The position numbers and the translations under genes were made by a program. Below are positions 1 through 48,907 of a stretch of 64,000 nt of DNA, in pieces. The notes under the pieces are model-generated. The model ran no database searches. It worked only from the letters and a program-made list of their open reading frames with translations, and was not told the origin of the DNA. The first letter of the stretch is position 1. Each line of letters starts with the position of its first letter. The stretch lies in NCBI GenBank assembly GCA_012690745.1, contig GCA_012690745.1_4086.1; one strand, written 5' to 3'. Origin of the DNA: a phage.

Positions 1-213
1 TAGAAGATTGTCGGTATAATTGAAAAATACGAAGTATACACAAATGGAAAATGGTCTATATCAGTAAACTATATTGACCACACTAAACGAAAAAGATACT
101 TATATTGTGTTAATATTAATTGGTTCCCTGTTGATGACACTTTAGTTAATTAAAAATATACTTCCAGATAGATAAATAATATAAAGATGTCATTCCATAA
201 TAGGAGAATATAA

Positions 214-900: not shown

Positions 901-994
901 TTTTATTTAAACTTAATATATAGCCTCGAATCTATTCGGGGCTTTTTTTATGCTAAATAAAGTATAATGCCTTATAAAATAAAAAGAGGTTGCT

Positions 995-1771: not shown

Positions 1772-1782
1772 GGAGATAATGA

Positions 1783-3890
<2,108 letters not shown>

Positions 3891-26782: not shown

Positions 26783-26892
26783 AATATTTCCCTTGTATGA
26801 GTTAATGTCATATACCAATATTTATCAGTACAAAATACATTTCGTTATCATTAATAAATAAATGAAAGTTCACTACTAAAAGGGCTTAAACA

Positions 26893-32532: not shown

Positions 32533-32572
32533 GTTTATTAATTAGAGTGACGTGAATCACATAGGAGAATAC

Positions 32573-34861
32573 ATGAATCTTACTCAATTGTTCAAAAAAA
32601 GCGACGAACTGGCAACATCTCTAGGTCATACATTCTTGACTATTGACCACGTAAGTGCCACAGTACTGACTATTGATAGCATCAAGAACGTATTTGAAGA
32701 TATGAACATTGATGCAGACAAACTGCACAACCGCCTGATGAACTATCTTAAAAATACAACAGTTCCACATGCACCAAAAAGTGTTAAAGATGAAGACGCG
32801 AATCGAACTTCACTTCTAGTGAATCGCGTTGTACATGAGCTTTCTAAAAAATCAGTTATTGAACAACTAAAAAGTGATGATTTTTCGATTGATGCATATT
32901 TTGTTCTATTCGAATGTCTGTCTTTCCCTAACACAGCACTAGAAGCTGCGTTAAAAGAAGAAGGTGTTAGCTGTACTGAAGCTGCACGTGCATTACAGAA
33001 ACACGTTGAGTCACTTGATAAGGGTATCAACTTACAAAGTATTAATGACGAACCGATTGGAGATAAAAAAGTGGCCCAACAGCAGCAATCATCTAAACAA
33101 AAAGGTTTGGAAGACTATACAACGAATCTAACTGCTCTTGCAAAAGAAGGCAAACTAGATCCTATGATTGGTCGCCAGAAAGAATTGTCTGCATTGATTG
33201 AGACTCTTGCTCGCAAAACCAAAAAGAATGCTATTCTCACTGGTGAAGCTGGTGTAGGTAAAACACAAATCATCGACGGACTTGCACAAGCTATTGCTGA
33301 TGGTAACGTACCTGAACACCTGAAAGACGTTGAAATTCTTTCACTAAATGTTGGTGCATTGACTGCTGGTACTAAGTATCGTGGTGAATTTGAAGAACGC
33401 ATCGACAATTTGCTAAAAGAACTAAAGAAACGTGAAAATACTATTGTTTTCATTGATGAAATTCATATTATGGTTGGGGCTGGTTCCGCAAGTAATGGTT
33501 CTATGGACATGAGCAATATGCTTAAGCCAGCACTTTCACGTGGTGAGATTCGTGTAATTGGTGCAACAACATATGATGAATATCGTAAAAATATCGAGAA
33601 AGATAGTGCATTAACTCGTCGTTTTATGAAAATTGACGTAGTTGAGCCGACAATTGATGAAACTCGTGCAATTGTTAATGGTTTGAAACCAACGTATGAA
33701 AAATTCCATAATGTTGAGTTCACATCTGATGCAATGGATGCTGTAATTTCTCTCAGTGATAAATTCCTGAAGAATAAGCACTTCCCAGATAAAGCAATTG
33801 ATCTAATGGATGCTGCTGCGGCTAAAGTTCGTTCACGTGACAACAATAGTAAGCTAATTACTGCCAATTTGATTCAAGAAGTTGTTGCTGGTATTGCCAA
33901 TTTGGATATCAACGTGGTTGCATGTACTGAAAGTGATCGTATGCGTAATCTACCAGATGCACTACGCTCACGTGTATACGGTCAAGAGGAAGCTATTCAA
34001 AAATTAGTTGATAACGTGATGGTAGCTCGTGCAGGACTGCGTGACAAATCTAGTGTTCAGGGTGCATTTATGTTTGTTGGACCATCTGGTACTGGTAAAA
34101 CAGAAATTACCAAAGCATTAGCAGACGCAACTGGTGCGGAACTCATTCGCTTTGATATGTCAGAATTTTCTCAAGAACATACTGTTTCTAAACTAATTGG
34201 TTCACCTCCAGGTTATGTTGGTCATGATTCTGGTAACGGTTTACTGTTGGATAAAATTGAGCAGTTCCCTAATGCAGTACTGTTACTTGATGAAATTGAA
34301 AAAGCAGATCGTAAAGTACTACTAACCTTCCTACAGGTTTTGGATGAAGGTCGTCTGACTGGTTCTCAAGGTAAAACTGTATATTTTAATAACGTAACTG
34401 TTATTATGACTACAAACCTTGGTGCGGCTGATTCAACAAAGCGTAGCATTGGTATGAGCGGTAGTGACACTGCACAGGACAAGGCAATTAAAGCATTCTT
34501 GCCACCAGAGTTTATTAACCGTATTGATAGTATCGTTACGTTTAAAGACCTAAGCAGTGAAGCTATTGACAGCATCATTGATAAGTTCATGGGTGGTTTG
34601 AATGAACAAGTCAAAGACCGTAATGTTAAAGTTACATTGACAAAAGCTGCACGTGAATGGCTTGCGAAAAATGGGGTAAAAGTTGGTATGGGTGCACGTC
34701 CAATGAAACGTACCATTGAACAAAACATTCGTGTACCACTAGCTAAAGAAATGTTGTGTGGTTCACTTGTGAATGGTGGTAACATTACATTTGATGTTAT
34801 TGATGGTAAAATCGGTATTAAGCCGAAACGTACCAAAGCTGTAGATAAAGCACTAGTATAA
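32573..34861 (+). CDS. ClpA/Hsp100-family AAA+ unfoldase (two nucleotide-binding domains, no ClpB-type middle domain)
   Basis: D1 Walker A GEAGVGKT and Walker B IVFIDEIH; D2 Walker A GPSGTGKT and Walker [10 protein letters not shown]; N-terminal Clp_N-like region. ORF track begins at a GTG (32552); ATG 32573 has RBS AGGAGA. Host-like codon usage. Confidence 0.85.
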
Positions 34862-34871
34862 AAAAAGAAAA

Positions 34872-34897
34872 GGAGAGCATTATGCTCTCCTTTTTTA
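34872..34897. terminator. bidirectional intrinsic terminator between convergent genes
   Basis: GGAGAGCA-tta-TGCTCTCC followed by TTTTTT; A-run on the 5' side. Confidence 0.75.
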
Positions 34898-37800
34898 TTA
34901 CTTAACTAATAATATATTTTTAATATCATTACCACTAACTTGTAGACTATCAGTGTATACTGAAAGATCTATAGTGTAACTATTTTGTGTGTAACGTTTT
35001 AACATATCATAATTACCTAAATTAATTCCATTGAAAGAATATGTGGTATTAAGTTTAAAATCATGTTCTGCACTATACATTACACCACGGAGTAAATTAT
35101 TTGCATTTCTAACTTCAACTTTTTCATATCCAATCGATATAATATCATTCATGTTCGCGGCTGAACCGGATAAAACATTATTTCTAATACTATAAGGACT
35201 TATTGATTTAGGTTGAGAAACATAGGTTGTATTTTCTTCACTAATGGTTGTGATGTTAGTAACAGTACCACCAACAACACCGATATACATACCGTCAACC
35301 ATTGGGAATCCATAAACCCATATCCCTTCATTATTTCTAAACGGTTGAATAACACTTGAATCATATTCGATAACGTTGATTTCTAAACTATCAGTCATTT
35401 TAGTTCTTGCCAATTCACTAAGAACTCCCGCACCCGTAATTGGTAAGTTATAACCGTTATCGATAGTAATTCCATCAACATCAAATATTTCATTGGAGAT
35501 TATCCAAACGTCAACGTCATCTGGTGTTATTCCGTCATTGTACTTACCACCATTTAAAGTAATATCGTAGAAAACATCATAATTAATTACATCAATGGTG
35601 TAATTTCTATTTTGTTCATACAATTTAATACCATTCTTGACAAATTCAGGGTCAGCAAATGTTCTAACACGAACAATGTTCAATGCTAGAGGCTGTACTG
35701 GCTCATTTTGTTGTGCAAGAGTGATGTTATCATAACGGAGAACTGCACCAGTACTCTCATCAATCAATTCAATCGTTTCCTTACCTGTATTTCTTACAGT
35801 GAATAGGATCGGAGTTGTATTGTTTTTGATGTTAGATACACGCAAGATTGTTTCCCATGTGTGATTTTGATATCTCACAAAATCTTCACCATCAGGAGTG
35901 AAAATCATCACCTTATCACCATCAGATAGGTCATTGTCAACTATTTCTGCTTCAGTTAAGCTATTAATAGATCTCACACGATAGAAATATTTTTCATCAA
36001 ACTTCGATGTTGTTTTATTAATATCATTTTCAATCTTAGCATATGAAGGAATACTTACAATTGCTTCTGTATGTTTATATGGATTGATAATTGCCATACC
36101 TTCAGTTTGATATCTGCTGTTATCACGTAATTGTACAAGAGATACATTGTCAAACCCATATCCATCAACTGTAAATCTAATTTGTCCAACATCACGCCCA
36201 GAAGGGTTTATGTCAGATATATCCACAATATAAGGATCAACTTCATCATCTTTAACTTCCCATTTTATTGAAGAAGTTTGAGATTCCAATGCTAGGTTAT
36301 CAAATGCATTCATATCATTGAAGTACTTAGCTTCAGTAATACTATCAAGTATATATTGATAATCAGAATACATTGGATTATTTTGATCTAGTGGTAAATC
36401 ATCAAGATTTATTTCAGCTAGTTCAACCATTTCACCATTTGTGATAAAATAATCTTCCATGAAATCATCAATACTTTGTTCATCAGGTATACTTTGATAT
36501 ACACCGTTAACATTTAAGTAAACATATTTTCGTGGAATCATTGTAATTGCATAGATATCAATTGGGGTCTTACTAAGAATCTCTTCAGCTTTTTCGTACT
36601 TATCAGTAGCGTCTTTGTCGAATAACCCTCTCATACCTGCTAATACGTGAATAGCATCAGTATAGAAACGGGTATCACCACCTACTTCATCATAACGATA
36701 AACATATACACCATACTCAACTTCAAGTTTAACTTTTACTTCATAGTCTGATGCGTCAGGATTTTTATCTTTAATTAATGAAATGTATTTTTGATACAAT
36801 TCACTGCTTATTTCAAAATATCCATAGTTATAATCATTACTAGAAGAAAAGCCTAATGGAAGTCTAGTACTAGGATTGTCATTATAAGTAAGTCCACTAA
36901 ATCCACATCCAACTTCATCGTGAATTTTCTCATCACTTATATCTTTATAAAGTTTCAAACGGTTTGCCAATGTGTTATACTGAACATATTGTCTAAGGTC
37001 AGTAAACATATCGTTATGCGTTGATTCTTTATAAACACGTTCCAATGTAGCAGTGAATTCATCAGTTGCTTCTAAATCTTCCGCATGGTCTTTATACCAC
37101 TGGTTAACGCCATATGCTGTTCCTAGTGTTACATCCAATTCTGGATAGTAGATTTGCATTTGATAAGCAATAAGAAGATCGAAAGTTTCTTCACTATATT
37201 CTGGGAAAGAATATATATAACGTTGTAATTCATAGTTACTAACAGCATCCTTTTCATTGGATTGATATTTGTTATTAACACTTACTAATTCATTTATGCT
37301 TGCCAAATCTTCATTTGGTTTACACTGAATATTATCATAATGCATAATAATATCAATTTCTTGGAATCTTCTATTTGGTGTAACGAAATCACTTGGTAGT
37401 GAACCTACCTGTTCCCATTTTTGGGTAATTTCATTAAATTGAGCGTACTCATAATCCCAAATATCTTTTTCAGTTTTGATCCAAGAACCGTCAACGAAAA
37501 TATATCCATTAGGATCTAAATCATTACATAGACCTTTTATTAAATCATCATCAGATGTCTTTTGCTCTATTTGTGAACGAATTTTAGTTCTATAAGGTTT
37601 AACTTCTTCAAAATATTCAACAATTTGATTAATCAAATTATCGTTTGAATAGTTTTGAACTAATGATTGTTCCAAACCAACAATATAGATATATGATGTT
37701 TTAAATACCCAATCCACAACACTTTGTTCAACATGTACATATTTGACCATATCAAAAACAATTTCGCTTTGATGTAAATCGAAAGAATTTTTGAGTAAAG

Positions 37801-40800
37801 CTAGTGCTTTACGAACGTTGATTTCACGATTGCTTAGTGAACCATTATCATTATGAACACTATAATCTGCGTAAAGCATATCATTGAGTTCAACTGTACT
37901 GTTTTCACGACCAATCGCTTTCCAATAAATTGAATCGCGTGATTGTGATTTAATATACAATGTCCAAATGTTTTCACTATCGGTAACTCTGATAATATCG
38001 CCAACTTGGTAGTTTTTAGTATTAGCATCTTCTAAGCTTGACTCTTGAGTATAAGTCGTGTTACTATCATATCCAACATCATACCAATCAGCATATGACC
38101 AGTACTGAGTCATGTCTAATGAGGTTCCTAGTGATTCAACATAATCAGATTGTTTAATCATTTTATGTTGTCCCTCACCTTTGTTTTCTAACGTTATAGT
38201 AACAACACTACCCGCGTTTGCTGGACTATTCATTAACTGAATATATCCATTTTCGTCGAAGTGAATAAAATAAACAGCACTAGAAGTTAATGGATTTGGT
38301 AGATATCCACTAGTACTTAAAATAACAGCGTCATTTTCTTTAAATTTATCACTTTCAACTGCAATAACTAATTCATTATTGTAAGACAACACACGGAAAG
38401 AAACTTCATTAGGGTTAACTTCAGTGGTTTTAACATTAAACACATCTTCCATAACAACACTATTAGTGGTTATGTTTTGTGACCTATAATAATTATTAGC
38501 ACTTTCTACAAAGTTTCTACGAGCTTCTATAACATTTTGGAACCAAGTTTTGTTTGATCCTAAACCGTTATCAACATCTGGATATAATAAATTAATCACA
38601 GAACCTGATTCAGTTGTTTCTTGACCAATTAGTGAGTTCCACATTGAATCCCAAATTAGTGGGTTAAAGTTATAGCTGTCACCTTCTTTACATAGTTGAT
38701 ACTGGTCATGTTTAACAACTTCAGTACTATCCATGTAATAAGAAACAGTTAAAATACTGGTATCATCATTCACTTTAAATTGCATATTACTAAGAATAAA
38801 CGAGTTTTCATTTATTGGAGCGAACCAAGGAATGTTTAGCTGTGTTGGATCTTTAATAATACGAGCAATGTCAGTACATGATTTCGTTCTGGTATGTAGT
38901 GGTGGTACATAAATTGTATCACGTACCCAGAAATAGTATTTTGTTACATAACTATCAGTTGAACTATCATATTCCAAAAATGTACTATAATTATCTTCAA
39001 GTGCAGTTCCACTTGGTAGATACATAGTATTATTTTTGTTTTTCTTAGCAACATCTTTACAGTATTTGTCCCAGTTATATGGCTCAACTGGTGAACAAAC
39101 CCACTCTAACACATCAATGGTACTATGTGGTAACAAACGTCCCCAGTTGTAACGTTTGTATTCATTGGTTGCATCAATATCAACATTACCGTCTGCGTCA
39201 TAAATTGCACGAGTATAATCCAAATAAAATGCAGTGCTAGTGTTCCACCATACTTGACCAACTTTATCAGCACCCCAAGCCTGGATTAACTCTCCATTAC
39301 TATTATACTGTGCAGGATCAACTGGTGAAGTATATGTTACGTTTTGCATAGCCGCACCTGGAATAACACCATTAATTGGGTCATAAACGTTTAGATATAG
39401 CTCAGTAATGTTAGTACGTTCATCATATGTCGTTGGACGATCAAATAAAGTACTTTGTGGTGCTTTAAAACTATATTTCTTGTCAATGTAAGCTTGACGA
39501 TCATCAGTACTGGCAAAACGTGATACATAACGATACAAACGTGGACGTGTATCTGGATCAGTAAATTCAATATCAATAGAAGTGTCAAATGGAACTACCA
39601 TAACTTTAGGATCAGAACCAGCAGTATAATATTGACTTTCTACTGTTAAAGTATCTGGCATAAAGTTAGTTTCATCAACAAAATAATAATAATCACCATC
39701 TTCAAGTGGTACATTATCAGTTAAAGTTACTTTACAAAATTGTTCAGCATACACATCGGTATTTTCAATAGGTGTTATAGAAACCATTTGTACATTAGTA
39801 TCAACCAATTCAAAAATGTTCCACAAACCATTACCGTCTTTAAACATCCACACAGATTCAGGATTTTCACCTTTACCATTAGTATAAGTTATGCGGTCAT
39901 TATATGCAGTACTGAAATCTTTTGTTGTGTACGATACTTCATCCAATGTTACTGGACCAATATCTGGAAGTTGGATGTTTTCACTTCTTCCACTACGCAT
40001 TGGGAATGAGAACTTACCATTTGGACGTGTAATCCAACGAGGATCTTTACCTTGCTCACCGAAGTATACAATATGATTACCATTACCATTTGAAGTTGCA
40101 TTTACATCAAAAGAAACCATTTGAGGTTGTTGTTTAAATTGGTCATTGATTAGTTTAAATTGAAGGTTTTTCTTACCATCAATATTACCATATGTACCAA
40201 TTTTAAATGCCCATTCTTGTAATGCTTTATATTCATCAGTGTCATATGATTTAGAAACACGAAGTACACGTTCTAAAACTTGGTTAGTACCTTTATCGTG
40301 AATGAATCCTTTATAGAAATCAACACGACTAACATCACTACTAATCATACGCTGTAGATAATCACGAGATTGATAACCAATCAAATGGTTTGACAACTCT
40401 TGTAATTGTACATCACTTACTGGAGTTTCACTATCATAATAATGTTGGAAATCCGACACTAATTTTTCAAATGATGGTAGTGTTCCAGCTTCCAAGATAA
40501 TAAATCCAGGAGCTTGTAGGCGACCAGTCCATGAACCAGTAATATATCCATACATTTTAATTAGTTCTTGAATAGAACCATATGTTGGCTGATAAATGTA
40601 ATCACCAAAAATAGTTTTATCATCAAAAATAACAGCATGTTCATATGAACACAAACTTAAACGAATCAATGCAATGCGTTTATTAGATTCTAAAGTTCTA
40701 ACAGTGAAGATATTTCCAATACGAGAAGTTTCAATTTCATATTGGCGAATACCTTGGTTATTATCATCAAGTAATGACCATACACCACCATTATTTTGCG

Positions 40801-43800
40801 TAATAGATTGTACTGAACCAAAGTCTGCCCCAAATTTAGCGTTTGCAGCACTTGGGGTACAAGAAATAAATTCACCAGTTACTAGAGAATTCTGACTCCA
40901 GATCACGAAATCTTTAGCAATAGTGTTCCAATCTTGTTGAGCACCACTATCATTTACATCTTCAAAAATCCAACCATGTTCTTTAAGATATTCACCATAT
41001 CCACAAATAAAAGTATAAACTTCTTGGTAACTATTGAAAACTTTACCATATTCAATTGAAGCTTCAGACTTCCATTCATTATAATGAACAACATTACGGT
41101 TTTCCAATTTAAGAGTTACTTTTCTACCATTTTTTACTGGAAGTTTATATTTAAATTTAGCACCAACTAGATCATATCCATCAATCTGATATGCACTACC
41201 ATTCCAAGTAATTTTGATCGCACTCATTTGCTCATCACGGATATTATTAGAACGAACAAGACCAATGGTTTGGTTTTCTTGTGAAATAAGACCGAAAGAT
41301 TTAGCATTGAATGTTAGCTGATCTGCTTTAGTAAATCCTCCAATTTTATGACCAACATTTATATAAGAAGAACGAACTACATCCCCATACTTGGTGGTAA
41401 TATTTTTATTTTGATACATCAAATGGTCACTTACAAACATTTGATAACCAATTGTTCTTGTGCTATTTTCACCATGAACTACTGTATTTTTATCAAAATT
41501 AATACGCTTACGTGTATCACCATAAAGGAATTGTGAACCATCAGTGAATACTTCTTTTAAGTTATCGTTGCGGGTATCCCAGAAATAGTTAGCAAATTGT
41601 GCTGGTTTAGCTTTATACAAAAGCATCATTTGGTCATATGCAAACAATGTAGTGTTCATGTATGTAAATTCCATGTCACCCATATCACCATATGTCCAAG
41701 GTTCTGCTCTATGATTTAAAGATCCAGACACTAAACCTAAAATTTCAGGTGCAATATATTCAACCACACAAATATCAATACCAGAAGATGTTTTATTTCC
41801 AGTTTTTGTAATTTTGAATGGCTGTACACCAAATCTTTTATATTTGTCATATTGACCACGACGATCACCAAATAAAATAGTTCCAGTACTGCTATCTCCA
41901 ATAGTTCCGTCAATATCCCAAAGACCACTAGGAACTAAATCACCTTGCTCATTCATAACAAGTGCTTCATATACATATACAACATCACTATCACGTTCAC
42001 CAACTTGAACAGCCGTTGGTTCGTATTCTTGGTTCCACCAAGTTGGACGTTGTGTAAAGCCAAACATTTCCCACGGATGGGTAGCTGGGCGATATGTACC
42101 ATATTGGTCAGTGTAAATGGCACGCCATGAACCACGTGCAGGAATTTCAGTACTTTGACCATTAACTACATAATAAGTGCCAGTATAGTTCCAAGTTCTC
42201 CAATTGTTAGGATCATAATCATGTGTACTATTACTGATACCATTAGTTGCGGTGAAGTTAATGTATCCACGTAGTAATAATGTTTGTTTCTCTTCAGCAC
42301 TATATTCAGTTTTAGTGAAATATGGTGTAGGGAAAAGGTCATCACTATTCAATACTGGTACGTAATCAACATCTTTGAATTTATTATCAATACTATTAAA
42401 AATTCTATTTTCTAATTCATATACAACATCATCCATTTTATCAACACCATTGATAACACGGTATGCTTTGGAAATAATACCAGTATGACTGATGTTATAA
42501 CAGCTTGGTTTACTACCAGCAGTGAGGAATGTCGCTTTTTCTGGTACATATGCTTGAAGAATACCTAAGAACTGTGGTGTTGGTGGTATAAATGCACGAA
42601 TGAATCCAGAAGTACTTCCAACATTATCATAATAGAATGGGAATGAACTATCACGTCCCATATTAATAGTAGTTAAAATTGCATCAACAATGTTTGCAGC
42701 ACTATTTTGTAAAAAGTCTGATGGATTTTCATCATACATACGAAGCATTTGTGTATTAAATTTATTAATGAATCTAAAATATTCAGATTGCATAAACATA
42801 GTTGCTTCAAACAAATCAATATCTTCATTTGCAGTATGTGCCATCAATGGAAGCATAGATGCTTCATTTTGGATAATTTTAGTACCTACGCCATTATTAA
42901 CCAATCCTTTAGCCAAACGTTCTTCATAGTCATTGAAATCATCAGAAGAACCACGTGTAATGTTCTTTTGAATAATATCCTGAAAATGTAAAGTGTAGTC
43001 ACCTTGGTTAATGTATATAATATTAGAATTATATGGGTTATTTTGTAGGTTGATTGGAACTTCATATGCACCTAATTCTTTATTAGGAGTTACAGTACTG
43101 CTATAAGTTCTAATTTGAATAACAGAATCTTCATCCAATTCTACAGTACTATCTAGAGTGATGCTTTGTACTTGACCTTTTGAAACATTTTTGGTATATT
43201 TGGACACATCAACACCATCAACCACAACTTCAATAATATCAGAATCATTATCTAAAACTTTTTGTGCCAATTCGAATGTATGGTCATATTTTACAATCTG
43301 AACACCATCACCAGTAATTGGATGCCAATCTAGATAAGTTTCACGGTCAGCTTTATAGTACTGATATGTTCTATCAACTTCAATAACATATGCATACATA
43401 CCATCAACTGGTTCTTTAAAAACTTCCATATCATAAACAGTACTGAATACACGATACATATCAGTACGTTGGACTTGTGGAGTTTGTTTTACAAATTGTT
43501 TAGAGTACTCTTCTGAACGAACCCAATCGGTTTGAAGATTCATTTCATTATTTTCATCAATAATGTTATAATAGTATAAACCATCAATTTCAACTTCTTT
43601 TCCAAGATGGTCATAGGTATAACGTTGGGATTGTAAAAAGTTTTCATAAATGTAATAATTATAATCACCAAGTTCAATGTTATATCCATATACACTATCA
43701 GTTGCATAGTTGTAATTTATTTTAAAACCAAACAACTCTGAACCTTTAAAGTTACTTGATGGATATGTAGTACTGTTGTCAAGTTTGATACCATTACGAT

Positions 43801-44899
43801 CATAAAGTTGGAATTTAGGGAATACGTTAACACTAGTTTTTGATTGTGCACGAACCCACAAAGATCCATTCCAGTACATAGAACTATTACCATACTCATT
43901 ACCTTTAGTGATTAGAACAACATCACCATCTTGAGGTTCACCACTTGGGCGTGATTCGGTTTCTTCTTCTGGATCTAGTGCTAAACCATAAACACGAGTA
44001 CCATCTTGCATTTTTTTCACATATACATTATAAATTCTATTGTTTTCACCATTGTTACCAATACTGGTGAATAGAATACGCATTCCATCTTGCGGAATAA
44101 TACCATCAATACGTATACCACTATTAATATCTTTTTGAACGATATCTTCAGGTTTAATAATATCAGAGAACAGATCAACAGTTCCACGGAATTTTGTACC
44201 GTAGTTAATTAGCTCAATATTTTTATTATATTCAATAATTGGTGCACGTGCACGAATAAAACGTGAATCTTGCATTAATTCTTCAGTTAATATTGAGCCA
44301 TCTTCTAATGTTTCACCTAAAGTATACCAAAAGTTTTGTAGTGACCATGTATTACCATTAAGTGCTCCACGTTCCATTACAATGTAATCAGGTGAAGTAA
44401 TATTATAAGAGTTTTTAGTATCCCAAAGATATGAGCTAAAATTGTTCATTTTATTTGGGTTAATAGCTGGAGTCCATGCATAAAACTTACCGTTGAACAA
44501 ACGGCTTTCATTATCGGTTAGTGCTCCATAATGATTCATGTATCCAACTAGATCATCATAAAATTGAATTGAACGAATTGTCGAATCATCATTTTTTGAG
44601 ACGTAAGCAGTGGACAACTGATAAAGTTGACGTGCTACAGTACTTTCATGTAAGAAGATATTACCAGCAGCGGCAGGAGAACCCATATCACCAATATAGC
44701 CGTCAACTAATTCGTTTTCAGCCGGATTAAACCATTGTTGAATAACATCATCACTGACTTTTTGAATATCTTCTAAGCCTTGCATCCACTCAGGCAATCT
44801 TTTAATAAAAAGCTTCTTCTGTACTGCTTCAGCCATCTGTGTAGGTTGAAACTTAAAATTATTAGTCATTTTTGGACTCCATATAATTCGTTCATTCAT
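34898..44899 (-). CDS. giant virion protein (3333 aa), probably baseplate-wedge/fibre-network component
   Basis: Uninterrupted 10-kb ORF directly downstream of the baseplate-J-like gene in the baseplate operon; Y/N/D/T-rich beta-type composition. A second in-frame ATG (44869) with a GGAG RBS may be the true start. Confidence 0.7.
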   Translation of the reverse strand: MNERIIWSPKMTNNFKFQPTQMAEAVQKKLFIKRLPEWMQGLEDIQKVSDDVIQQWFNPAENELVDGYIGDMGSPAAAGNIFLHESTVARQLYQLSTAYVSKNDDSTIRSIQFYDDLVGYMNHYGALTDNESRLFNGKFYAWTPAINPNKMNNFSSYLWDTKNSYNITSPDYIVMERGALNGNTWSLQNFWYTLGETLEDGSILTEELMQDSRFIRARAPIIEYNKNIELINYGTKFRGTVDLFSDIIKPEDIVQKDINSGIRIDGIIPQDGMRILFTSIGNNGENNRIYNVYVKKMQDGTRVYGLALDPEEETESRPSGEPQDGDVVLITKGNEYGNSSMYWNGSLWVRAQSKTSVNVFPKFQLYDRNGIKLDNSTTYPSSNFKGSELFGFKINYNYATDSVYGYNIELGDYNYYIYENFLQSQRYTYDHLGKEVEIDGLYYYNIIDENNEMNLQTDWVRSEEYSKQFVKQTPQVQRTDMYRVFSTVYDMEVFKEPVDGMYAYVIEVDRTYQYYKADRETYLDWHPITGDGVQIVKYDHTFELAQKVLDNDSDIIEVVVDGVDVSKYTKNVSKGQVQSITLDSTVELDEDSVIQIRTYSSTVTPNKELGAYEVPINLQNNPYNSNIIYINQGDYTLHFQDIIQKNITRGSSDDFNDYEERLAKGLVNNGVGTKIIQNEASMLPLMAHTANEDIDLFEATMFMQSEYFRFINKFNTQMLRMYDENPSDFLQNSAANIVDAILTTINMGRDSSFPFYYDNVGSTSGFIRAFIPPTPQFLGILQAYVPEKATFLTAGSKPSCYNISHTGIISKAYRVINGVDKMDDVVYELENRIFNSIDNKFKDVDYVPVLNSDDLFPTPYFTKTEYSAEEKQTLLLRGYINFTATNGISNSTHDYDPNNWRTWNYTGTYYVVNGQSTEIPARGSWRAIYTDQYGTYRPATHPWEMFGFTQRPTWWNQEYEPTAVQVGERDSDVVYVYEALVMNEQGDLVPSGLWDIDGTIGDSSTGTILFGDRRGQYDKYKRFGVQPFKITKTGNKTSSGIDICVVEYIAPEILGLVSGSLNHRAEPWTYGDMGDMEFTYMNTTLFAYDQMMLLYKAKPAQFANYFWDTRNDNLKEVFTDGSQFLYGDTRKRINFDKNTVVHGENSTRTIGYQMFVSDHLMYQNKNITTKYGDVVRSSYINVGHKIGGFTKADQLTFNAKSFGLISQENQTIGLVRSNNIRDEQMSAIKITWNGSAYQIDGYDLVGAKFKYKLPVKNGRKVTLKLENRNVVHYNEWKSEASIEYGKVFNSYQEVYTFICGYGEYLKEHGWIFEDVNDSGAQQDWNTIAKDFVIWSQNSLVTGEFISCTPSAANAKFGADFGSVQSITQNNGGVWSLLDDNNQGIRQYEIETSRIGNIFTVRTLESNKRIALIRLSLCSYEHAVIFDDKTIFGDYIYQPTYGSIQELIKMYGYITGSWTGRLQAPGFIILEAGTLPSFEKLVSDFQHYYDSETPVSDVQLQELSNHLIGYQSRDYLQRMISSDVSRVDFYKGFIHDKGTNQVLERVLRVSKSYDTDEYKALQEWAFKIGTYGNIDGKKNLQFKLINDQFKQQPQMVSFDVNATSNGNGNHIVYFGEQGKDPRWITRPNGKFSFPMRSGRSENIQLPDIGPVTLDEVSYTTKDFSTAYNDRITYTNGKGENPESVWMFKDGNGLWNIFELVDTNVQMVSITPIENTDVYAEQFCKVTLTDNVPLEDGDYYYFVDETNFMPDTLTVESQYYTAGSDPKVMVVPFDTSIDIEFTDPDTRPRLYRYVSRFASTDDRQAYIDKKYSFKAPQSTLFDRPTTYDERTNITELYLNVYDPINGVIPGAAMQNVTYTSPVDPAQYNSNGELIQAWGADKVGQVWWNTSTAFYLDYTRAIYDADGNVDIDATNEYKRYNWGRLLPHSTIDVLEWVCSPVEPYNWDKYCKDVAKKNKNNTMYLPSGTALEDNYSTFLEYDSSTDSYVTKYYFWVRDTIYVPPLHTRTKSCTDIARIIKDPTQLNIPWFAPINENSFILSNMQFKVNDDTSILTVSYYMDSTEVVKHDQYQLCKEGDSYNFNPLIWDSMWNSLIGQETTESGSVINLLYPDVDNGLGSNKTWFQNVIEARRNFVESANNYYRSQNITTNSVVMEDVFNVKTTEVNPNEVSFRVLSYNNELVIAVESDKFKENDAVILSTSGYLPNPLTSSAVYFIHFDENGYIQLMNSPANAGSVVTITLENKGEGQHKMIKQSDYVESLGTSLDMTQYWSYADWYDVGYDSNTTYTQESSLEDANTKNYQVGDIIRVTDSENIWTLYIKSQSRDSIYWKAIGRENSTVELNDMLYADYSVHNDNGSLSNREINVRKALALLKNSFDLHQSEIVFDMVKYVHVEQSVVDWVFKTSYIYIVGLEQSLVQNYSNDNLINQIVEYFEEVKPYRTKIRSQIEQKTSDDDLIKGLCNDLDPNGYIFVDGSWIKTEKDIWDYEYAQFNEITQKWEQVGSLPSDFVTPNRRFQEIDIIMHYDNIQCKPNEDLASINELVSVNNKYQSNEKDAVSNYELQRYIYSFPEYSEETFDLLIAYQMQIYYPELDVTLGTAYGVNQWYKDHAEDLEATDEFTATLERVYKESTHNDMFTDLRQYVQYNTLANRLKLYKDISDEKIHDEVGCGFSGLTYNDNPSTRLPLGFSSSNDYNYGYFEISSELYQKYISLIKDKNPDASDYEVKVKLEVEYGVYVYRYDEVGGDTRFYTDAIHVLAGMRGLFDKDATDKYEKAEEILSKTPIDIYAITMIPRKYVYLNVNGVYQSIPDEQSIDDFMEDYFITNGEMVELAEINLDDLPLDQNNPMYSDYQYILDSITEAKYFNDMNAFDNLALESQTSSIKWEVKDDEVDPYIVDISDINPSGRDVGQIRFTVDGYGFDNVSLVQLRDNSRYQTEGMAIINPYKHTEAIVSIPSYAKIENDINKTTSKFDEKYFYRVRSINSLTEAEIVDNDLSDGDKVMIFTPDGEDFVRYQNHTWETILRVSNIKNNTTPILFTVRNTGKETIELIDESTGAVLRYDNITLAQQNEPVQPLALNIVRVRTFADPEFVKNGIKLYEQNRNYTIDVINYDVFYDITLNGGKYNDGITPDDVDVWIISNEIFDVDGITIDNGYNLPITGAGVLSELARTKMTDSLEINVIEYDSSVIQPFRNNEGIWVYGFPMVDGMYIGVVGGTVTNITTISEENTTYVSQPKSISPYSIRNNVLSGSAANMNDIISIGYEKVEVRNANNLLRGVMYSAEHDFKLNTTYSFNGINLGNYDMLKRYTQNSYTIDLSVYTDSLQVSGNDIKNILLVK

Positions 44900-44914
44900 T
44901 TGATTTATTTATGA

Positions 44915-44942
44915 TATAAAAAAGGCGTTCCGAAGAACGCCC
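44915..44942 (-). terminator. intrinsic terminator (minus strand) between the 1153-aa and 3333-aa genes
   Basis: Minus-strand GGCGTTC-ttcg-GAACGCC followed by TTTTTTAT. Confidence 0.6.
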
Positions 44943-44948
44943 GTTATA

Positions 44949-47900
44949 TTAAGAACCGATATTAATATTACTTTTAGCTAGTGAGTTAACAATTTGAACA
45001 TTTTCAACAGATGCAGTACTCAAAAATATTTGGTCTGAACGTGAAGGGATTTCAAATAGAGAGCCAAATTTTGAATTTGGATTTTGTGCAACTATAACAA
45101 TGGTACTAATATGTCTACCTAACTGTGAGTGTATGTAAGTACACAAATCAGTATAATAGAAACTTTCACCGAAATCCCAGTTGTCAACATTGAAGTATTC
45201 ATTAGTTAATGCTATAACATTTTGACGAATTTCATCGTCACTCATTGTGCTGTTTGGTAATTTCACTACTTTAAAATCAGCTTTGTAATCTTCAGCAGCA
45301 CTGTTGCCAAATAAAGGTAAGTACTCAGCACTATGCCAAATAATACTATCACTAATGACTATTTTTTGTTCAACATCTTTGAACATATCTTTCAATTCAA
45401 CCGATGTAGGTGGTTTAGGAATACTACCAACAGCATTATTTTTCAACCAAACGTCAACTTCAGTTTTATATGAATTGGTTAATACATACATATCAATTAA
45501 GTTTGTTCTACTAGGATCAATGCGATTGTCGTCAGGTGCATAGTGTTTCCAATGGAAGTCTATACTAGTACGTGCATTAGTTTTAACAGTGTACTGTGAA
45601 GTAACATCTTTGTATCCATAATAATCTAGCTTCTGATTCTCGTCAGCATTAGTTCCCATGTTATTAATTGCACGATAAAAAGCCAATTCAGGACTAACAG
45701 TGCCAGTATCATCGGAATAAGTTAAATTACTAATTAGCTGTCCTAAACGATCATTGTTATTACCAACTGTTTGTTCAATAAAATAATATTTACCATCATA
45801 GTTAAAACCAACTAAAAATCCAGAACCTTTACTATATAATCCACTCAATGTGGTTGAACGAATTGCGTTATTTCTAACAAATTCAGTTCTTTTATATGCA
45901 TTCGGCTCTGCCAAGGCTTGTTCCATTGTATAAGACCACGATGAATCAAGAAGTGTGAAGGTATCATTTGGTAACGACAGTACTGATATAGTGAAATCAC
46001 TATTTTCCTGAAATACCAAAATACCACCATATTTTAATGCATCGGTTCCAGTCCAAGTAGGAACAATTTCTTTAAATTGGTTTGGTTCCAATGGTATACC
46101 ATTACTATCTACTTTCCTAGATGTAACAATAACACGAGAACCATCTAGATAGCCATTCTCTTGTTGAATTGTGTCATAAATTTGAAAATCTATATTACTT
46201 GTCAATCCTGAATTACTACTACTAGTAGTGTTAGATGATAAAATTTCAATCTTATCACTTTGAACTGTACCAGTACTAATATCAGTAATTTTTTTAGATG
46301 ATACAAAGTAAAATCTTACTTTTTCTCCACCCACAAAAATATATTCAATACCGTTAGCATCAAATTCCCAAGTTTCTGCTGTATATTTTACATTAATTAT
46401 AATTAAAACTTCATTGCCATTATATACAATAGTATCATCATTGGTACTTACTTCAATAGGAACCCATGATGTCGTTTCTTTGTCATGTACAATAACAAAA
46501 TCAGTTTTTTTATCTAGCATAGCAGAAATTGCTTGAACTTCAACCGAGTTAAATCTAGTTCTATATGGTAAAATGTACTCTATGGCTTGCATTCCACTTG
46601 GAACCGATGTACTCAGTACATAAAATCCATTATCCAATACACTAACTACACTAGCCCATATAGTAGTTCCAGAATTAGAAAATTTAATTAGAGTACCAAC
46701 CTGATATGAACCATAAACTGTACCAGATGAACCCAAAATTCTACCATATGTGTTAGTTGTATAATTTGAATTGTATACCGGAGTCCATGCTTGTTGTATT
46801 TCAATACCAATTGTATTTGATGGAAACGCTTGGTAACGTTGTATTACCGCATTTTCACCAATCAATGGTTGAATATTGTCAATAACAATACTAGCATTTG
46901 TTTTTGTAGTTGGTAGTAATAATGACCTATTAAATTGTGTGTTTTCTTGATATAATGCACCATCATCACTAAAAACATCGGTATTTTGATACTTACCAGT
47001 AGGATCATTAATATCAATAAATCTTGATTGTCCACTATAAATTCTATTAATAGCTTTAGATTTAAGTACAGTATTGCCTAAACTAAGTGGTGCAATATTA
47101 TAATCTTCACCATTGACAAAACGGTTTTGTGTATAGTACATTTGTGGTGCACGTGCTTTAATCTGCTCAATAGTCTCTGCACTTTGTGCACGGTCGGACT
47201 CATATTGTAATGAAAAACGTATATCCAATGTACTAGATTCATAACTTGACTGTGTTTTTGTACGATATGTATATTTTACGCTTTTGTTTTGAATTTCAGA
47301 AGTTTTAATGTTATATGTTTTACCATTACTAACACGATACCATACGCGGAACGTCCCACGGGGAACAACACCACTTCTTGAGTCTGGATACTTAATTGTT
47401 ATTTGATCTTTATCACGAGTAGTAACAGCAAAAATTGTTTTTAATTGACGATTAACAGTGTTATATGCAATACTTTCCATTGATGGAACTTTTGTCCATT
47501 TGGTACGAACAATACCATCTTCATTTATTTCTTGAACCCATACATCAGTTTCGTTGATATTATCAACGTTAATATCTTGTATACGGTTCTCTTCACGGAT
47601 AGCATATTGATAATCTTGATATGTCAATGTACCTTGTACGAAATATACAAAAAAACCAGTATTTGGTGAGCTAAATCCATTACCATCATTTTGATAAACA
47701 ATATATTTTTGCTCTTGTGGTTCTGGATGTCGTTCTTCAACACCAACAGACGTAATATCAGGATTCACTACTTCAAATGTCATAGATTCACCATTGACAG
47801 TTGCAATAAATGGAATACTGGGTGCTGTCATTGGGATGGTGTTCATTCGATATAGTTGACGGGAGACACCATTAACATCAATACGCTTGACTGGATTACC

Positions 47901-48410
47901 AAATTGGTTAGTACTGACAAATGAACTGTTCATTACTAGAATGAAGTTTTCATACCAGTTAGCATCCATCGGGTCATTCCAACGAATGATTTTATCTTTT
48001 AATGATTCATTAAAACTATTACGAACATCTTGGTTTGTTTTAATTTCGGTTAATTTAGCAACTGCACGACCTGGATATGAGCGGCGTGGTGAGTAAGAAA
48101 TCATTTTAGCTAGTTTTAGTACTGATGCACGACGAGTTGCAGTATCTAAAAAGTTTTCACGTGTGTTCAAATCCATACGAAATGCCAAGTTCTGCCCTAG
48201 CATAGAAATCGTATCTAAAATAAAAATAAACTGGTCGTTTTCGATCCAGTCGTTGAATGAGTCTGGGTAAGTTGCACGTAGATAATCAATCATACTCTGA
48301 CGGATAGTATCGAAGTCATAAGCTGTAAGATTGATTTTATAAAAACTTTCATATACTTGAGTCCAATCCTCACCAGCGTATAAATTTGATTGCCTTTTTT
48401 GTTGTGACAT
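44949..48410 (-). CDS. baseplate wedge protein, baseplate-J/gp6-like (1153 aa)
   Basis: Large ORF immediately downstream of the gp25/GPW-like gene, the conserved W-J order of myovirus baseplates. Assignment rests mainly on synteny. Confidence 0.45.
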   Translation of the reverse strand: MSQQKRQSNLYAGEDWTQVYESFYKINLTAYDFDTIRQSMIDYLRATYPDSFNDWIENDQFIFILDTISMLGQNLAFRMDLNTRENFLDTATRRASVLKLAKMISYSPRRSYPGRAVAKLTEIKTNQDVRNSFNESLKDKIIRWNDPMDANWYENFILVMNSSFVSTNQFGNPVKRIDVNGVSRQLYRMNTIPMTAPSIPFIATVNGESMTFEVVNPDITSVGVEERHPEPQEQKYIVYQNDGNGFSSPNTGFFVYFVQGTLTYQDYQYAIREENRIQDINVDNINETDVWVQEINEDGIVRTKWTKVPSMESIAYNTVNRQLKTIFAVTTRDKDQITIKYPDSRSGVVPRGTFRVWYRVSNGKTYNIKTSEIQNKSVKYTYRTKTQSSYESSTLDIRFSLQYESDRAQSAETIEQIKARAPQMYYTQNRFVNGEDYNIAPLSLGNTVLKSKAINRIYSGQSRFIDINDPTGKYQNTDVFSDDGALYQENTQFNRSLLLPTTKTNASIVIDNIQPLIGENAVIQRYQAFPSNTIGIEIQQAWTPVYNSNYTTNTYGRILGSSGTVYGSYQVGTLIKFSNSGTTIWASVVSVLDNGFYVLSTSVPSGMQAIEYILPYRTRFNSVEVQAISAMLDKKTDFVIVHDKETTSWVPIEVSTNDDTIVYNGNEVLIIINVKYTAETWEFDANGIEYIFVGGEKVRFYFVSSKKITDISTGTVQSDKIEILSSNTTSSSNSGLTSNIDFQIYDTIQQENGYLDGSRVIVTSRKVDSNGIPLEPNQFKEIVPTWTGTDALKYGGILVFQENSDFTISVLSLPNDTFTLLDSSWSYTMEQALAEPNAYKRTEFVRNNAIRSTTLSGLYSKGSGFLVGFNYDGKYYFIEQTVGNNNDRLGQLISNLTYSDDTGTVSPELAFYRAINNMGTNADENQKLDYYGYKDVTSQYTVKTNARTSIDFHWKHYAPDDNRIDPSRTNLIDMYVLTNSYKTEVDVWLKNNAVGSIPKPPTSVELKDMFKDVEQKIVISDSIIWHSAEYLPLFGNSAAEDYKADFKVVKLPNSTMSDDEIRQNVIALTNEYFNVDNWDFGESFYYTDLCTYIHSQLGRHISTIVIVAQNPNSKFGSLFEIPSRSDQIFLSTASVENVQIVNSLAKSNINIGS

Positions 48411-48475
48411 AATTTATTCCTTTAAATCAGTAAAGTACTAGTTCAGTACTGGGAATTATATATAGAAATATTTAT

Positions 48476-48507
48476 TCAAAAAGAAAAGCACTCCGAAGAG
48501 TGCTTTT
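48476..48507 (-). terminator. intrinsic terminator (minus strand) after the gp25-like gene
   Basis: AAAGCACTC-ttcg-GAGTGCTTT followed by a T-run on the minus strand. Confidence 0.55.
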
Positions 48508-48511
48508 GTAA

Positions 48512-48907
48512 TTATAAAGACGATACTGAATATGTTGCCATTCTGTTATTACTTCTTGCATCGAATACAATAGTAAGTTCTTCTAATGTATCCAATACTA
48601 CGTACTGTAATACAATATTCATTTGGTATCCATATTCTATTCTTGAAATTTGCAATTTCTTAAGATTTAAGCGTGGATCTAAGCTAATTATTCTACGGGC
48701 ATCTGCTTCCAAAAGGTTGATAGTATTATAACCTTCCAATTCAAACAGCAAATCCCATGCAATAAAACCATAGTCAGCATCAAATGCTCTTTCGCCTTTT
48801 TTTGTATTGAAATGATTCATTAAATCTTGGCGAACCAATTCACTATCATACAATGTTTCAGTTCTACCCACTACTGGGGTAGAAAAACCTTTAAAAACAA
48901 CTGCCAT
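48512..48907 (-). CDS. baseplate wedge protein, gp25/GPW-like
   Basis: 131 aa; contains the family-typical TKKGERAFDADYG (GER...FG) motif; size and position between lysozyme and the J-like gene fit. Confidence 0.65.
   Translation of the reverse strand: MAVVFKGFSTPVVGRTETLYDSELVRQDLMNHFNTKKGERAFDADYGFIAWDLLFELEGYNTINLLEADARRIISLDPRLNLKKLQISRIEYGYQMNIVLQYVVLDTLEELTIVFDARSNNRMATYSVSSL

What the first reader, a model, noticed from the sequence alone, without database searches (positions are those of the whole stretch)
34898..44899. Giant 3333-aa protein inside the baseplate operon
A single uninterrupted 10-kb ORF follows the gp25-like and baseplate-J-like genes, where T4 encodes gp7 (~1000 aa) and wedge proteins. 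It is either a fusion of several wedge/fibre functions or a very large branched-fibre scaffold. A T4 late-promoter-like ATAAATA lies immediately upstream (44903-44912).
Basis: partly seen in the sequence, partly recalled or inferred. Interest (0 to 1): 0.6.

Follow-up and report, generated by a model that had tools for sequence, protein, structure and literature searches.

The report
Giant baseplate wedge protein, jumbo phage
The 10-kb gene is real and encodes a 382-kDa protein already detected in particles of near-identical jumbo coliphages; it sits where simpler tailed phages encode their second baseplate wedge protein, always occurs as one giant gene in about a thousand related phage lineages, and resembles no protein of known structure.

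Summary
The ORF at 34898-44899 (minus strand, 3333 codons) is real. The window is an Asteriusvirus jumbo coliphage (PBECO4/121Q/phAPEC6 group), and the gene is PBECO4 gp538, annotated "virion structural protein". Its phAPEC6 and CBB orthologues were found in virions by mass spectrometry. The true start is probably codon 11 (ATG at 44869), giving 3323 aa and 381.9 kDa.

The ATAAATA upstream is one of about a dozen late-promoter-like motifs in the window. The gene lies between two hairpin terminators, so it is its own late transcription unit.

The order gp25-like, then gp6-like (about 1000-1160 aa), then a giant protein is conserved from coliphages to XacN1 and to metagenomic phage contigs. About 1000 clusters (50% identity) of relatives exist, and almost all are 2000-6300 aa. 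No convincing split version was found.

The protein has no repeats. It shows no sequence, profile or fold similarity to T4 gp7, gp8, gp9, gp10, gp11 or gp12, nor to any PDB entry. The same profile method does link the neighbouring gene to T4 gp6.

Best reading: it is the gp7-position peripheral wedge protein, hugely expanded, and it builds the outer baseplate. This rests on position and context and is not shown directly. The gene is catalogued but functionally unassigned. Interest is moderate.

The parts
34898..44899 (-). Longest ORF as reported: 3333 codons plus stop
34898..44869 (-). Probable true coding sequence from Met-11: 3323 aa, 381.9 kDa, stop at 34898-34900
   Evidence: There is an SD GGAG 7 nt upstream. 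Homologues and phrog_10938 start at residue 11. The mass matches phAPEC6 gp245.
44906..44912 (-). ATAAATA late-promoter-like motif, 37 nt upstream of the ATG at 44869
   Evidence: The motif is depleted in the window (14 found, 37 expected). About 12 of the 14 copies lie roughly 17-60 nt upstream of an SD plus ATG on the coding strand.
44877..44880 (-). Shine-Dalgarno GGAG for the ATG at 44869
44923..44942 (-). Intrinsic-terminator-like hairpin (UUCG loop plus U run) between the gp6-like gene and the giant gene
   Evidence: folding energy -15.2 kcal/mol, z-score -6.0
34868..34894 (-). Terminator-like hairpin just after the stop codon. It is symmetric, with A and T runs on both sides, and is shared with the convergent ClpB-like gene.
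   Evidence: folding energy -16.9 kcal/mol, z-score -5.1
44423..44869 (-). N-terminal module, aa 11-159, conserved in all relatives. It ends at insertion hot spot 1. Residues 11-85 are conserved helices predicted with low confidence.
40100..44422 (-). Conserved core part 1, aa 160-1600. Globular alpha/beta and beta-sandwich domains; the aa 11-1200 model has pLDDT 84 and pTM 0.78.
40229..40594 (-). aa 1436-1557. Among the most conserved stretches of the family, yet helical with pLDDT below 50. Candidate partner-dependent interface.
39425..40099 (-). aa 1601-1825, variable segment and insertion hot spot 2. Relatives carry inserts of up to about 1600 aa here.
   Evidence: for the location and size of the inserts. 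Accessory domains (CBM_5_12, FG-GAP_2, Laminin_G_3) occur in the distant relatives, but they were not mapped to this hot spot.
37520..39424 (-). Conserved core part 2, aa 1826-2460
34901..37519 (-). C-terminal region, aa 2461-3333. Conserved only within the RaK2-like group and its nearest metagenomic relatives, and faster-evolving. One copy per genome, never found in another gene.
44949..48410 (-). gp6/baseplate-J-like wedge protein, 1153 aa. Invariant upstream partner gene.
48512..48907 (-). gp25-like sheath initiator, first gene of the conserved triad

Best explanation
The gene encodes the giant wedge protein of the baseplate of RaK2-like jumbo myophages.

Shown:
- It is a real gene with a late-promoter-like motif upstream and terminator-like hairpins on both sides.
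- Its product is in the virion.
- It always follows the gp25-like and gp6-like genes.
- It is never convincingly split.
- It is non-repetitive, and the modelled part is predicted to be made of globular domains.
- Distant relatives carry carbohydrate-binding modules within it.

Inferred:
- It plays the part that gp7 (T4), gpI (P2), gp48 (Mu) or gp23 (Pam3) plays in smaller contractile tails. One copy joins two copies of the gp6-like protein in each of the six wedges.
- Binding probably occurs through one of its two conserved, partner-dependent helical regions (aa 11-85 or aa 1436-1557).
- The remaining roughly 3000 residues build the peripheral baseplate, which T4 assembles from the outer domains of gp7 together with gp8, gp9, gp10 and gp11. 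This periphery would provide the docking sites for the tail fibres.
- The fast-evolving C-terminal ~820 residues face the fibres or the host surface.

The protein is not a detectable homologue of T4 gp7. The claim is that it works in gp7's place.
For: Virion component: phAPEC6 gp245 (381.88 kDa, 17 peptides), listed next to gp244 'baseplate wedge', and CBB_236 (21 peptides), next to CBB_237. phAPEC6 is 99.9% identical in DNA over this gene.

Gene order: VSP, gp53-like, 749-aa VSP, gp5-like, lysozyme, gp25-like, gp6-like, giant. This parallels T4 genes 53-5-...-6-7. It also parallels the sheath initiator / wedge 1 / wedge 2 / fibre order of Pam3, where the peripheral wedge subunit carries the fibre docking sites (PMC9942802).

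The triad gp25, gp6-like, giant is kept in RaK2, PA5oct (gp128 is named as one of the largest proteins and gp129/gp130 are baseplate proteins; the adjacency is inferred from the numbering), XacN1 (3313 aa at 22% identity) and metagenomic loci L003-L005. In those loci the gp6-like stop and the giant start abut or overlap, and in L003 fibre genes follow shortly downstream.

No gp7, gp8, gp9, gp10 or gp11 homologue is listed among the T4-like proteins of CBB or annotated in the PBECO4 stretch retrieved.

The family is large and always giant: 198 word-index hits, with the best 120 all 2779-5638 aa, and 995 representative clusters, with most of the top 150 between 2000 and 6281 aa.

Models: aa 11-1200 has pLDDT 84.1 and pTM 0.78, a confident multi-domain body. 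aa 1186-2385 has pLDDT 76. There are no repeats and no transmembrane segment.

CBM_5_12 occurs in 6 of 13 distant members, with FG-GAP and laminin-G in others.

Late-promoter motif and terminators.
Against: There is no sequence or profile similarity to T4 gp7. BLASTP gave nothing. hhalign of eight segment profiles against T4 gp7, and against a 41-sequence gp7 family alignment, gave probabilities mostly below 1% and at most 2%. The giant has no hit to any Pfam family at E <= 0.01, which includes the gp7 families PF21428/PF21456/PF21427 found in T4 gp7 relatives. The same hhalign method does link the neighbouring gene to T4 gp6.

Copy number, location within the baseplate and contact with the gp6-like protein were not measured by anyone I could find. 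The 749-aa and 243-aa structural proteins of the same module are also unassigned and could hold the gp7 role. aa 2386-3333 were not modelled.
Confidence: 0.6

Rival explanations
1. It is a peripheral baseplate or fibre-anchoring protein only. The true gp7/TssG-type core wedge subunit would be another, still unrecognised small protein of the module, such as the 243-aa or 749-aa virion protein. The giant would be bolted onto the outside.
Against: In Pam3 the gene after the gp6-like one is the core wedge partner; from my own knowledge the same holds for P2 and Mu. Here that position is always the giant gene, and in distant relatives its start abuts or overlaps the gp6-like stop. The small gp7-type core (one helix plus a few strands) would not be expected to show up in monomer fold searches, so the negative result is weak.
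Confidence: 0.25
2. It is a fibre: either the baseplate fibre or the 'hairy' whiskers seen along the tails of phAPEC6 and CBB.
For: phAPEC6 and CBB carry unusual whiskers whose proteins are not identified. The protein is large and present in the virion.
Against: There are no internal repeats. The aa 11-1200 model is a confident multi-domain body with pTM 0.78, and neither model gave a significant match to a fibre or tailspike. The gene is equally conserved in RaK2, for which the papers read here describe no tail whiskers (my reading), and in PA5oct and XacN1, whose morphology I did not check. Separate tail-fibre genes exist, for example 16923-22448, which matches phrog_4549.
Confidence: 0.07
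3. It is an internal or ejected virion protein, or a tape measure, comparable in size to the N4 virion RNA polymerase.
For: Only its size and its presence in virions.
Against: No enzyme family or fold was detected. From my own knowledge of the roughly 1.5 Angstrom-per-residue rule, about 3300 aa would measure a tail several times longer than the 94-123 nm observed. Carbohydrate-binding modules in relatives point to an exposed position. It lies next to the wedge genes.
Confidence: 0.04
4. It is an annotation or assembly artefact: several genes joined by sequencing errors.
For: A few public records show the region as 3-9 CDS: SD-1_S14, SD-2_S15, SD-6_S16 and CMSTMSU.
Against: Three of those records are 95.6-99.6% identical to intact copies and align in several pieces; CMSTMSU is 83% identical at protein level and aligns in 7 pieces. 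The ORF is intact in dozens of independently sequenced phages and in hundreds of metagenomic clusters. A 381.88-kDa product was identified by mass spectrometry.
Confidence: 0.01

Closest known systems
T4 gp7 (baseplate wedge protein; Pfam PF21428/PF21456/PF21427; PDB 5IV5 recalled from memory)
   Same: The gene lies immediately after the gp6 homologue in a 53-5-25-6-X wedge module. It is a large multi-domain virion protein and is expressed late.
   Different: It is 3.2 times longer. No sequence, profile or fold similarity was detected, although the neighbouring gene is detectably related to T4 gp6. T4 adds gp8-gp11 as separate proteins; none is recognisable here.
Minimal wedge partner proteins: Pam3 gp23, P2 gpI, Mu gp48, T6SS TssG
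   Same: Same gene order (sheath initiator, wedge 1, wedge 2, then fibres). In Pam3 this subunit sits at the periphery and carries the fibre docking sites (PMC9942802).
   Different: Those proteins are roughly 180-350 aa (my own knowledge). No Pfam family of any kind matched. Participation in a core bundle is only inferred here.
phrog_10938 and the orthologues PBECO4 gp538, 121Q gp582, phAPEC6 gp245, RaK2 ORF070w, CBB_236, PA5oct gp128, XacN1 ORF325
   Same: Full-length orthologues. PBECO4 and phAPEC6 are 99.9% identical in DNA. All are annotated only as 'virion structural protein' or 'hypothetical protein'.
   Different: None; this is the same gene. None of the papers I read assigns it a function.
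CBA120 TSP4 N-terminal anchor and assembly region (PDB 7rfv/7rej)
   Same: It is the best or near-best structural hit for both models. According to the RaK2 paper, this TSP4 region contains T4 gp10-like domains that serve as docking platforms for other tailspikes.

Membership tests
T4 gp7 family | Matches the gp7 Pfam domains PF21428, PF21456 and PF21427, which all 120 listed T4 gp7 relatives carry | tested here: not met
   hmmscan of the 3333-aa protein against Pfam-A gave 0 families at E <= 0.01.
T4 gp7 family | Sequence or profile homology to T4 gp7 | tested here: not met
   BLASTP best E was 0.81. hhalign of 8 segment profiles against T4 gp7 and against a 41-sequence gp7 alignment gave probabilities of at most 2%. 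Positive control: the gp6-like profile against T4 gp6 gave E 2.6e-4 over 304 columns.
T4 gp7 family | Fold similarity to solved gp7 | tested here: inconclusive
gp7/gpI/TssG-type wedge partner (functional class) | Encoded directly after the gp25-like and gp6/J-like genes | tested here: met
   True in the window, RaK2 (97), XacN1 (99) and L003-L005 (37, 38). Compare T4 (18) and Pam3 (84).
gp7/gpI/TssG-type wedge partner (functional class) | One chain forms the core helical bundle and trifurcation unit with two gp6-like chains | not testable with these tools
   No complex prediction or map was available. The candidate regions are aa 11-85 and aa 1436-1557, which are conserved but predicted with low pLDDT.
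phrog_10938 (RaK2-like giant virion structural protein) | Full-length match to the profile | tested here: met
   E = 0, 5793 bits, residues 11-3330 aligned to profile positions 1-3324 of 3324.
Tail fibre or tailspike proteins | Repetitive or elongated architecture, or a fibre/tailspike family match | tested here: not met
   Self-BLAST finds no repeats. There are no fibre Pfam or PHROG hits. The modelled parts (aa 11-2385) show mixed helix and strand elements with a confident multi-domain N-terminal body.
T4-type late promoter | TATAAATA-like element about 25-45 nt upstream of the start codon, in a phage with a gp55-type sigma factor | tested here: met
   Here the octamer is cATAAATA, one mismatch to the T4 octamer. 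The 7-mer is depleted overall and concentrated upstream of SD+ATG sites. A gp55-like sigma factor is annotated in PBECO4 (gp530). Activity itself was not tested.

The most novel reading that the evidence does not exclude
A single ~380-kDa polypeptide, built from domains with no match to solved structures in these searches, replaces the whole multi-protein periphery of a T4-type baseplate (gp7 outer domains plus gp8-gp11). It would be the hallmark wedge protein of a very large clade of jumbo and mega phages (about 1000 clusters at 50% identity, up to 6281 aa), which diversifies host contact by inserting adhesion modules at two fixed hot spots.
Probability: 0.4. Interest if true: 0.6.

Novelty: new variant of a known kind. 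Interest (0 to 1): 0.4.

Why it matters
Baseplates of contractile tails are thought to share a small conserved core: gp25, two copies of gp6, and one of gp7. In RaK2-like jumbo phages the gp7 slot is filled by a protein three times larger that has no detectable homology to gp7.

If it really is the wedge partner, it shows how far that subunit can diverge and expand. It would also identify the platform on which the elaborate fibre systems of these therapy-relevant Klebsiella, E. coli and Pseudomonas jumbo phages are mounted.

Practically, it gives annotators a name for a gene that is 'hypothetical' or 'virion structural protein' in every record seen here but one, corrects its start codon, and gives cryo-EM groups a defined target.

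Tried and rejected
- Pfam, NCBIfam and PDB sequence searches gave nothing for the giant, whether queried as a single sequence or (PDB only) as a 26-sequence full-length profile.
- hhalign of the segment profiles gave nothing against T4 gp6, gp7, gp8, gp9, gp10, gp11, gp12 and gp53, against a gp7 family alignment, or against a gp6-like profile.
I therefore used 23 rows.
- The search for homologous proteins with the C-terminal 863 aa returned no hit. Local BLASTP of the same sequence finds 67 of the earlier proteins, so I treat this as a tool artefact.
- The look-up of the short representative P0214 found no contig. P0129 (1720 aa) lies on a 7-kb contig and ends at insertion hot spot 2, so whether it is a true split is ambiguous.
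- The exact T4 octamer TATAAATA occurs only 3 times in the window and not upstream of this gene. The 7-mer ATAAATA is the informative motif.
- Sigma-70-type promoter matches are below chance expectation and were ignored.
- Eleven papers on this phage group were searched for a function of the gene: phAPEC6, CBB, PA5oct, the two RaK2 papers, phiKp24, fEgEco12, Atu_ph07, the Iyer review, and two search listings. None assigns one.
Full report
OBSERVATION. The window has about 33% G+C. Stop codons then make up roughly 7.5% of random triplets, so a 10-kb open frame cannot arise by chance (about 1e-112, my arithmetic).

The DNA is 100% identical to Escherichia phages ECO103 4-12-1 and EC22.5-2, and 99.9% identical to PBECO4, G17, Sharanji and phAPEC6. 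121Q is 99.1% identical. The window therefore comes from an Asteriusvirus jumbo coliphage. In the RefSeq record of PBECO4 the gene is gp538, 'virion structural protein'.

START CODON AND TRANSCRIPTION SIGNALS. The intergenic sequence reads as follows: stop of the upstream gene; a GGGCGTTC-TTCG-GAACGCCT hairpin followed by a T run; cATAAATA; six bases; ATG (44899); ten codons; and then GGAG, 7 nt, ATG (44869).

- The hairpin is a strong terminator-like structure (-15.2 kcal/mol, z-score -6.0). Similar hairpins follow the giant gene (34868-34894) and precede the gp6-like gene (48484-48507).
- ATAAATA occurs only 14 times in the window, against 37 expected. About 12 of the 14 copies lie roughly 17-60 nt upstream of a Shine-Dalgarno sequence plus ATG on the coding strand. 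PBECO4 annotates a gp55-type late sigma factor nearby (gp530).
- The same pattern shows that the first ATG is too close to the motif (6 nt, no SD) to be the start. The ATG at 44869 fits the spacing seen at the other genes. It is where divergent homologues and the PHROG profile begin. It gives 381,875 Da, the 381.88 kDa listed for phAPEC6 gp245.
- The protein is therefore most likely 3323 aa, and the gene is a monocistronic late transcription unit.

IS IT IN THE VIRION, AND IS IT ONE GENE?

- ESI-MS/MS of phAPEC6 virions found gp245 (381.88 kDa, 17 unique peptides), listed next to gp244 'baseplate wedge' (131 kDa) (PMC7247149).
- CBB virions contain CBB_236 (21 peptides), next to CBB_237 'baseplate wedge' (PMC5259590).
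- The gene is intact in at least 35 phage records at the DNA level and in 73 of 93 by tblastn of aa 11-2400.
- The few records that cut it into 3-9 CDS are SD-1_S14, SD-2_S15, SD-6_S16 and CMSTMSU. The three Salmonella phage records are 95.6-99.6% identical to intact copies and align in several pieces, which is the signature of assembly frameshifts. CMSTMSU is 83% identical at protein level and aligns in 7 pieces.

CONTEXT. Reading the minus strand from 55.5 kb to 34.9 kb, the genes are:
- a 243-aa virion protein;
- a gp53-like wedge protein (104 aa);
- a 749-aa virion protein;
- a gp5-like hub/lysozyme (887 aa);
- a 162-aa lysozyme;
- gp25-like (131 aa, PF04965);
- a 1153-aa wedge protein whose N-terminus matches phrog_219;
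- the giant gene.

T4 has the order 53-5-...-6-7-8-9-10-11-12. A five-sequence profile of the 1153-aa protein aligns co-linearly with T4 gp6 (positions 29-441 against residues 22-350, E 2.6e-4). The 'baseplate-J-like' call is therefore right, and the giant gene occupies the gene-7 slot.

The CBB paper lists T4 homologues for gp4, 6, 13, 15, 17, 18, 20, 21, 23, 25 and 53, but none for gp7-gp12.

THE FAMILY. The word-index search gave 198 relatives, and the best 120 are all 2779-5638 aa. The exhaustive search with aa 11-1200 found 995 representative clusters at E <= 1e-3 and 583 at E <= 1e-30. Most of the top 150 are between 2000 and 6281 aa, and the few short ones look like fragments.

Among cultured phages the family covers Asteriusvirus, Alcyoneusvirus (RaK2, K64-1), the Erwinia pEa_SNUABM phages, GAP32, CBB, a Vibrio phage, PA5oct and its relatives, Salicola SCTP-2 (440 kb), Agrobacterium Atu_ph07 (490 kb), XacN1, Xoo-sp13 and RAS14.

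The triad gp25-like, gp6-like (971-1163 aa), giant is retained in the following:
- RaK2: ORF072w, ORF071w, ORF070w.
- XacN1: ORF323, ORF324, ORF325. ORF325 is 3313 aa, although only 22% identical over a quarter of the query.
- PA5oct: gp128 is one of its two largest proteins and gp129/gp130 are baseplate proteins; the adjacency is inferred from the numbering.
- Three metagenomic loci. The gp6-like stop and the giant start overlap in L003 and abut in L004/L005, and in L003 tail-fibre genes with Peptidase_S74 follow shortly downstream.

I found no credible split version. The one candidate (P0129, 1720 aa) sits on a 7-kb contig and ends at an insertion hot spot, with the next ORF overlapping in another frame.

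ANATOMY. BLASTP mapping against the relatives and column conservation give this layout:
- An N-terminal module, aa 11-159, present in all relatives.
- Insertion hot spot 1 after aa ~159, with 70-500 extra residues in relatives.
- A conserved core, aa ~160-1600.
- A variable segment, aa ~1600-1825, which is hot spot 2. Relatives carry up to ~1600 extra residues here.
- A second conserved block, aa ~1825-2460.
- A C-terminal ~870 residues that are recognisable mainly within the RaK2-like group and its nearest metagenomic relatives (P0001-P0069). The last ~820 (aa 2511-3333) evolve faster: 71-83% identity in the nearest relative, against 79-98% in the core.

The distant relatives carry CBM_5_12 (6 of 13 scanned), FG-GAP_2, Laminin_G_3 and a glycine-rich domain. 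I did not map these domains to the hot spots.

The C-terminal region occurs once per genome and never in another gene. There are no internal repeats and no hydrophobic segments.

STRUCTURE. AlphaFold2 with a 23-row alignment gave a good model for aa 11-1200: pLDDT 84.1 and pTM 0.78, a confident multi-domain alpha/beta and beta-sandwich body. The model for aa 1186-2385 is fair: pLDDT 76.2 and pTM 0.45.

Two stretches are strongly conserved yet predicted as low-confidence helices: aa 11-85 and aa 1436-1557. The latter is among the most conserved windows of the whole family. This is what one expects of segments that fold only against a partner.

- Foldseek of the aa 11-1200 model against all PDB chains found nothing at E <= 1e-3.
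- T4 gp7 does not appear among the listed hits.

These searches used whole 1200-residue models, and aa 2386-3333 were not modelled. A small shared core cannot be excluded.

HOMOLOGY TO gp7. This was tested and not found.
- Pfam gives no family for the giant, whereas all 120 listed T4 gp7 relatives carry PF21428, PF21456 and PF21427.
- BLASTP against T4 gp7 is at noise level.
- Profile-to-sequence and profile-to-profile hhalign of eight segments give probabilities of at most 2%, mostly below 1%.
- Since the same procedure recovers the gp6 relationship for the neighbouring gene, the negative result is informative.

The giant should not be filed as a member of the gp7 family.

MOST LIKELY FUNCTION. 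Contractile-tail baseplates are built from six wedges. In each, two gp6-type chains and one peripheral gp7-type chain form a helical core bundle and a trifurcation unit, and the peripheral chain carries the fibre docking sites (Pam3, PMC9942802). The genes run in the order sheath initiator, wedge 1, wedge 2, fibres.

The giant gene is the only gene that always occupies the wedge-2 position in this clade, and in distant relatives its start abuts or overlaps the wedge-1 stop. It is a virion protein, apparently expressed late. The modelled two-thirds is made of globular domains and the protein has no fibre-like repeats. Distant relatives carry sugar-binding modules within it, which suggests that part of it is exposed.

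I therefore commit, at about 0.6, to this reading: it is the gp7-position wedge protein, present in six copies. It is anchored to two gp6-like chains through one of the two partner-dependent helical regions. Its extra ~3000 residues form the peripheral baseplate and fibre platform, and its fast-evolving C-terminus faces the fibres or the cell.

- Shown: the gene, its presence in the virion, the conserved synteny, the breadth of the family, its unsplit state, the domain layout, and the lack of homology to gp7.
- Inferred: wedge membership, copy number, the interface, and fibre docking.

RIVALS.
- A peripheral add-on, with an unrecognised small protein as the real gp7 equivalent (0.25). This is compatible with all the negative homology data but sits less well with the invariant gene position.
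- A fibre or whisker protein (0.07). This is contradicted by the lack of repeats, the non-fibrous model, and the presence of the gene in RaK2, for which the papers read here describe no whiskers.
- An ejected protein or a tape measure (0.04).
- An assembly artefact (0.01).

NOVELTY AND VERDICT. The gene and its presence in virions are already in the databases and in two proteomics papers. The CBB authors even used 'the largest ORF' to align the genomes.

None of the papers I could search assigns it a role: phAPEC6, CBB, PA5oct, both RaK2 papers, phiKp24, fEgEco12, Atu_ph07 and the Iyer review.

This analysis adds the following:
- the corrected start codon;
- the promoter and terminator layout;
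- the invariance of the gp25, gp6, giant triad out to 22% identity;
- the size of the family (about 1000 clusters, always giant);
- the two insertion hot spots;
- a controlled negative result for gp7 homology;
- the absence of matches to solved structures across aa 11-2385.

I rate it a new variant of a known kind, namely a wedge-2 protein expanded and diverged beyond recognition. Interest is moderate (0.4). It is not surprising that a jumbo phage has a big baseplate protein, but the protein is a clear and tractable target for structural work.

Noticed in passing
window 32552-34861 (+), with the hairpin at 34868-34894: A ClpB/ClpA-like double-AAA+ ATPase gene (AAA_2, ClpB_D2-small, Clp_N) is convergent with the giant gene and shares a symmetric terminator hairpin with it. 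The same adjacency exists in RaK2 (ORF069 and ORF070w) but not in the distant metagenomic loci. It might be a chaperone for very large virion proteins.
   Followed up: partly
window-wide; the 14 sites are listed: ATAAATA is strongly depleted (14 found, 37 expected), and nearly all copies lie about 17-60 nt upstream of an SD plus ATG on the coding strand. This looks like a phage late-promoter motif. The exact T4 octamer TATAAATA occurs only 3 times.
   Followed up: yes
window 54700-55521 (-), 25655-26818 (-), 995-1771 (+): The longest-ORF starts (TTG or ATG) here are probably too far upstream. An ATAAATA motif lies inside the predicted 5' end, and the PBECO4 annotation of the first two genes uses later starts.
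   Followed up: partly
window 48484-48507 (-) and 48469-48475 (-): The gp6-like gene has its own terminator hairpin plus ATAAATA upstream, like the giant gene. The two large wedge genes therefore look like separate late transcription units, not one operon.
   Followed up: partly
GenBank OR699183.1, OR699181.1, OR699182.1, MH494197.1 (hits H14, H20, H21, H48): In these records the giant gene is annotated as 3-9 hypothetical proteins and aligns in several pieces. The three Salmonella phage records are 95.6-99.6% identical to intact copies; CMSTMSU is 83% identical at protein level. These are probably assembly frameshifts.
   Followed up: partly
L006:1679-7344: A metagenomic relative (P0129, 1720 aa) stops at insertion hot spot 2, and the next ORF overlaps it in another frame and runs off the contig. 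It is either a rare true split or a sequencing error.
   Followed up: partly
window 44949-48410 (-): The gp6-like wedge protein is 1153 aa, nearly twice the size of T4 gp6. Only its first ~440 residues align with gp6. Relatives carry Pfam PF27647 (DUF8360), which is absent from the Pfam copy searched here.
   Followed up: partly
window 49448-52111 (-) and 48923-49411 (-): The gp5-like hub protein carries a C-terminal lysozyme domain and is followed by a second, free-standing 162-aa lysozyme gene inside the baseplate module.
   Followed up: no
window 16923-22448 (-): An 1841-aa tail-fibre gene (phrog_4549, matched in 7 stretches) lies in a locally G+C-richer region (0.38-0.40). Many long spurious ORFs overlap it on the opposite strand.
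   Followed up: no
tool: the search for homologous proteins with the C-terminal 863 aa returned no hit, although the same sequence matches 67 previously returned proteins by local BLASTP. I treated this as a tool artefact.
   Followed up: yes
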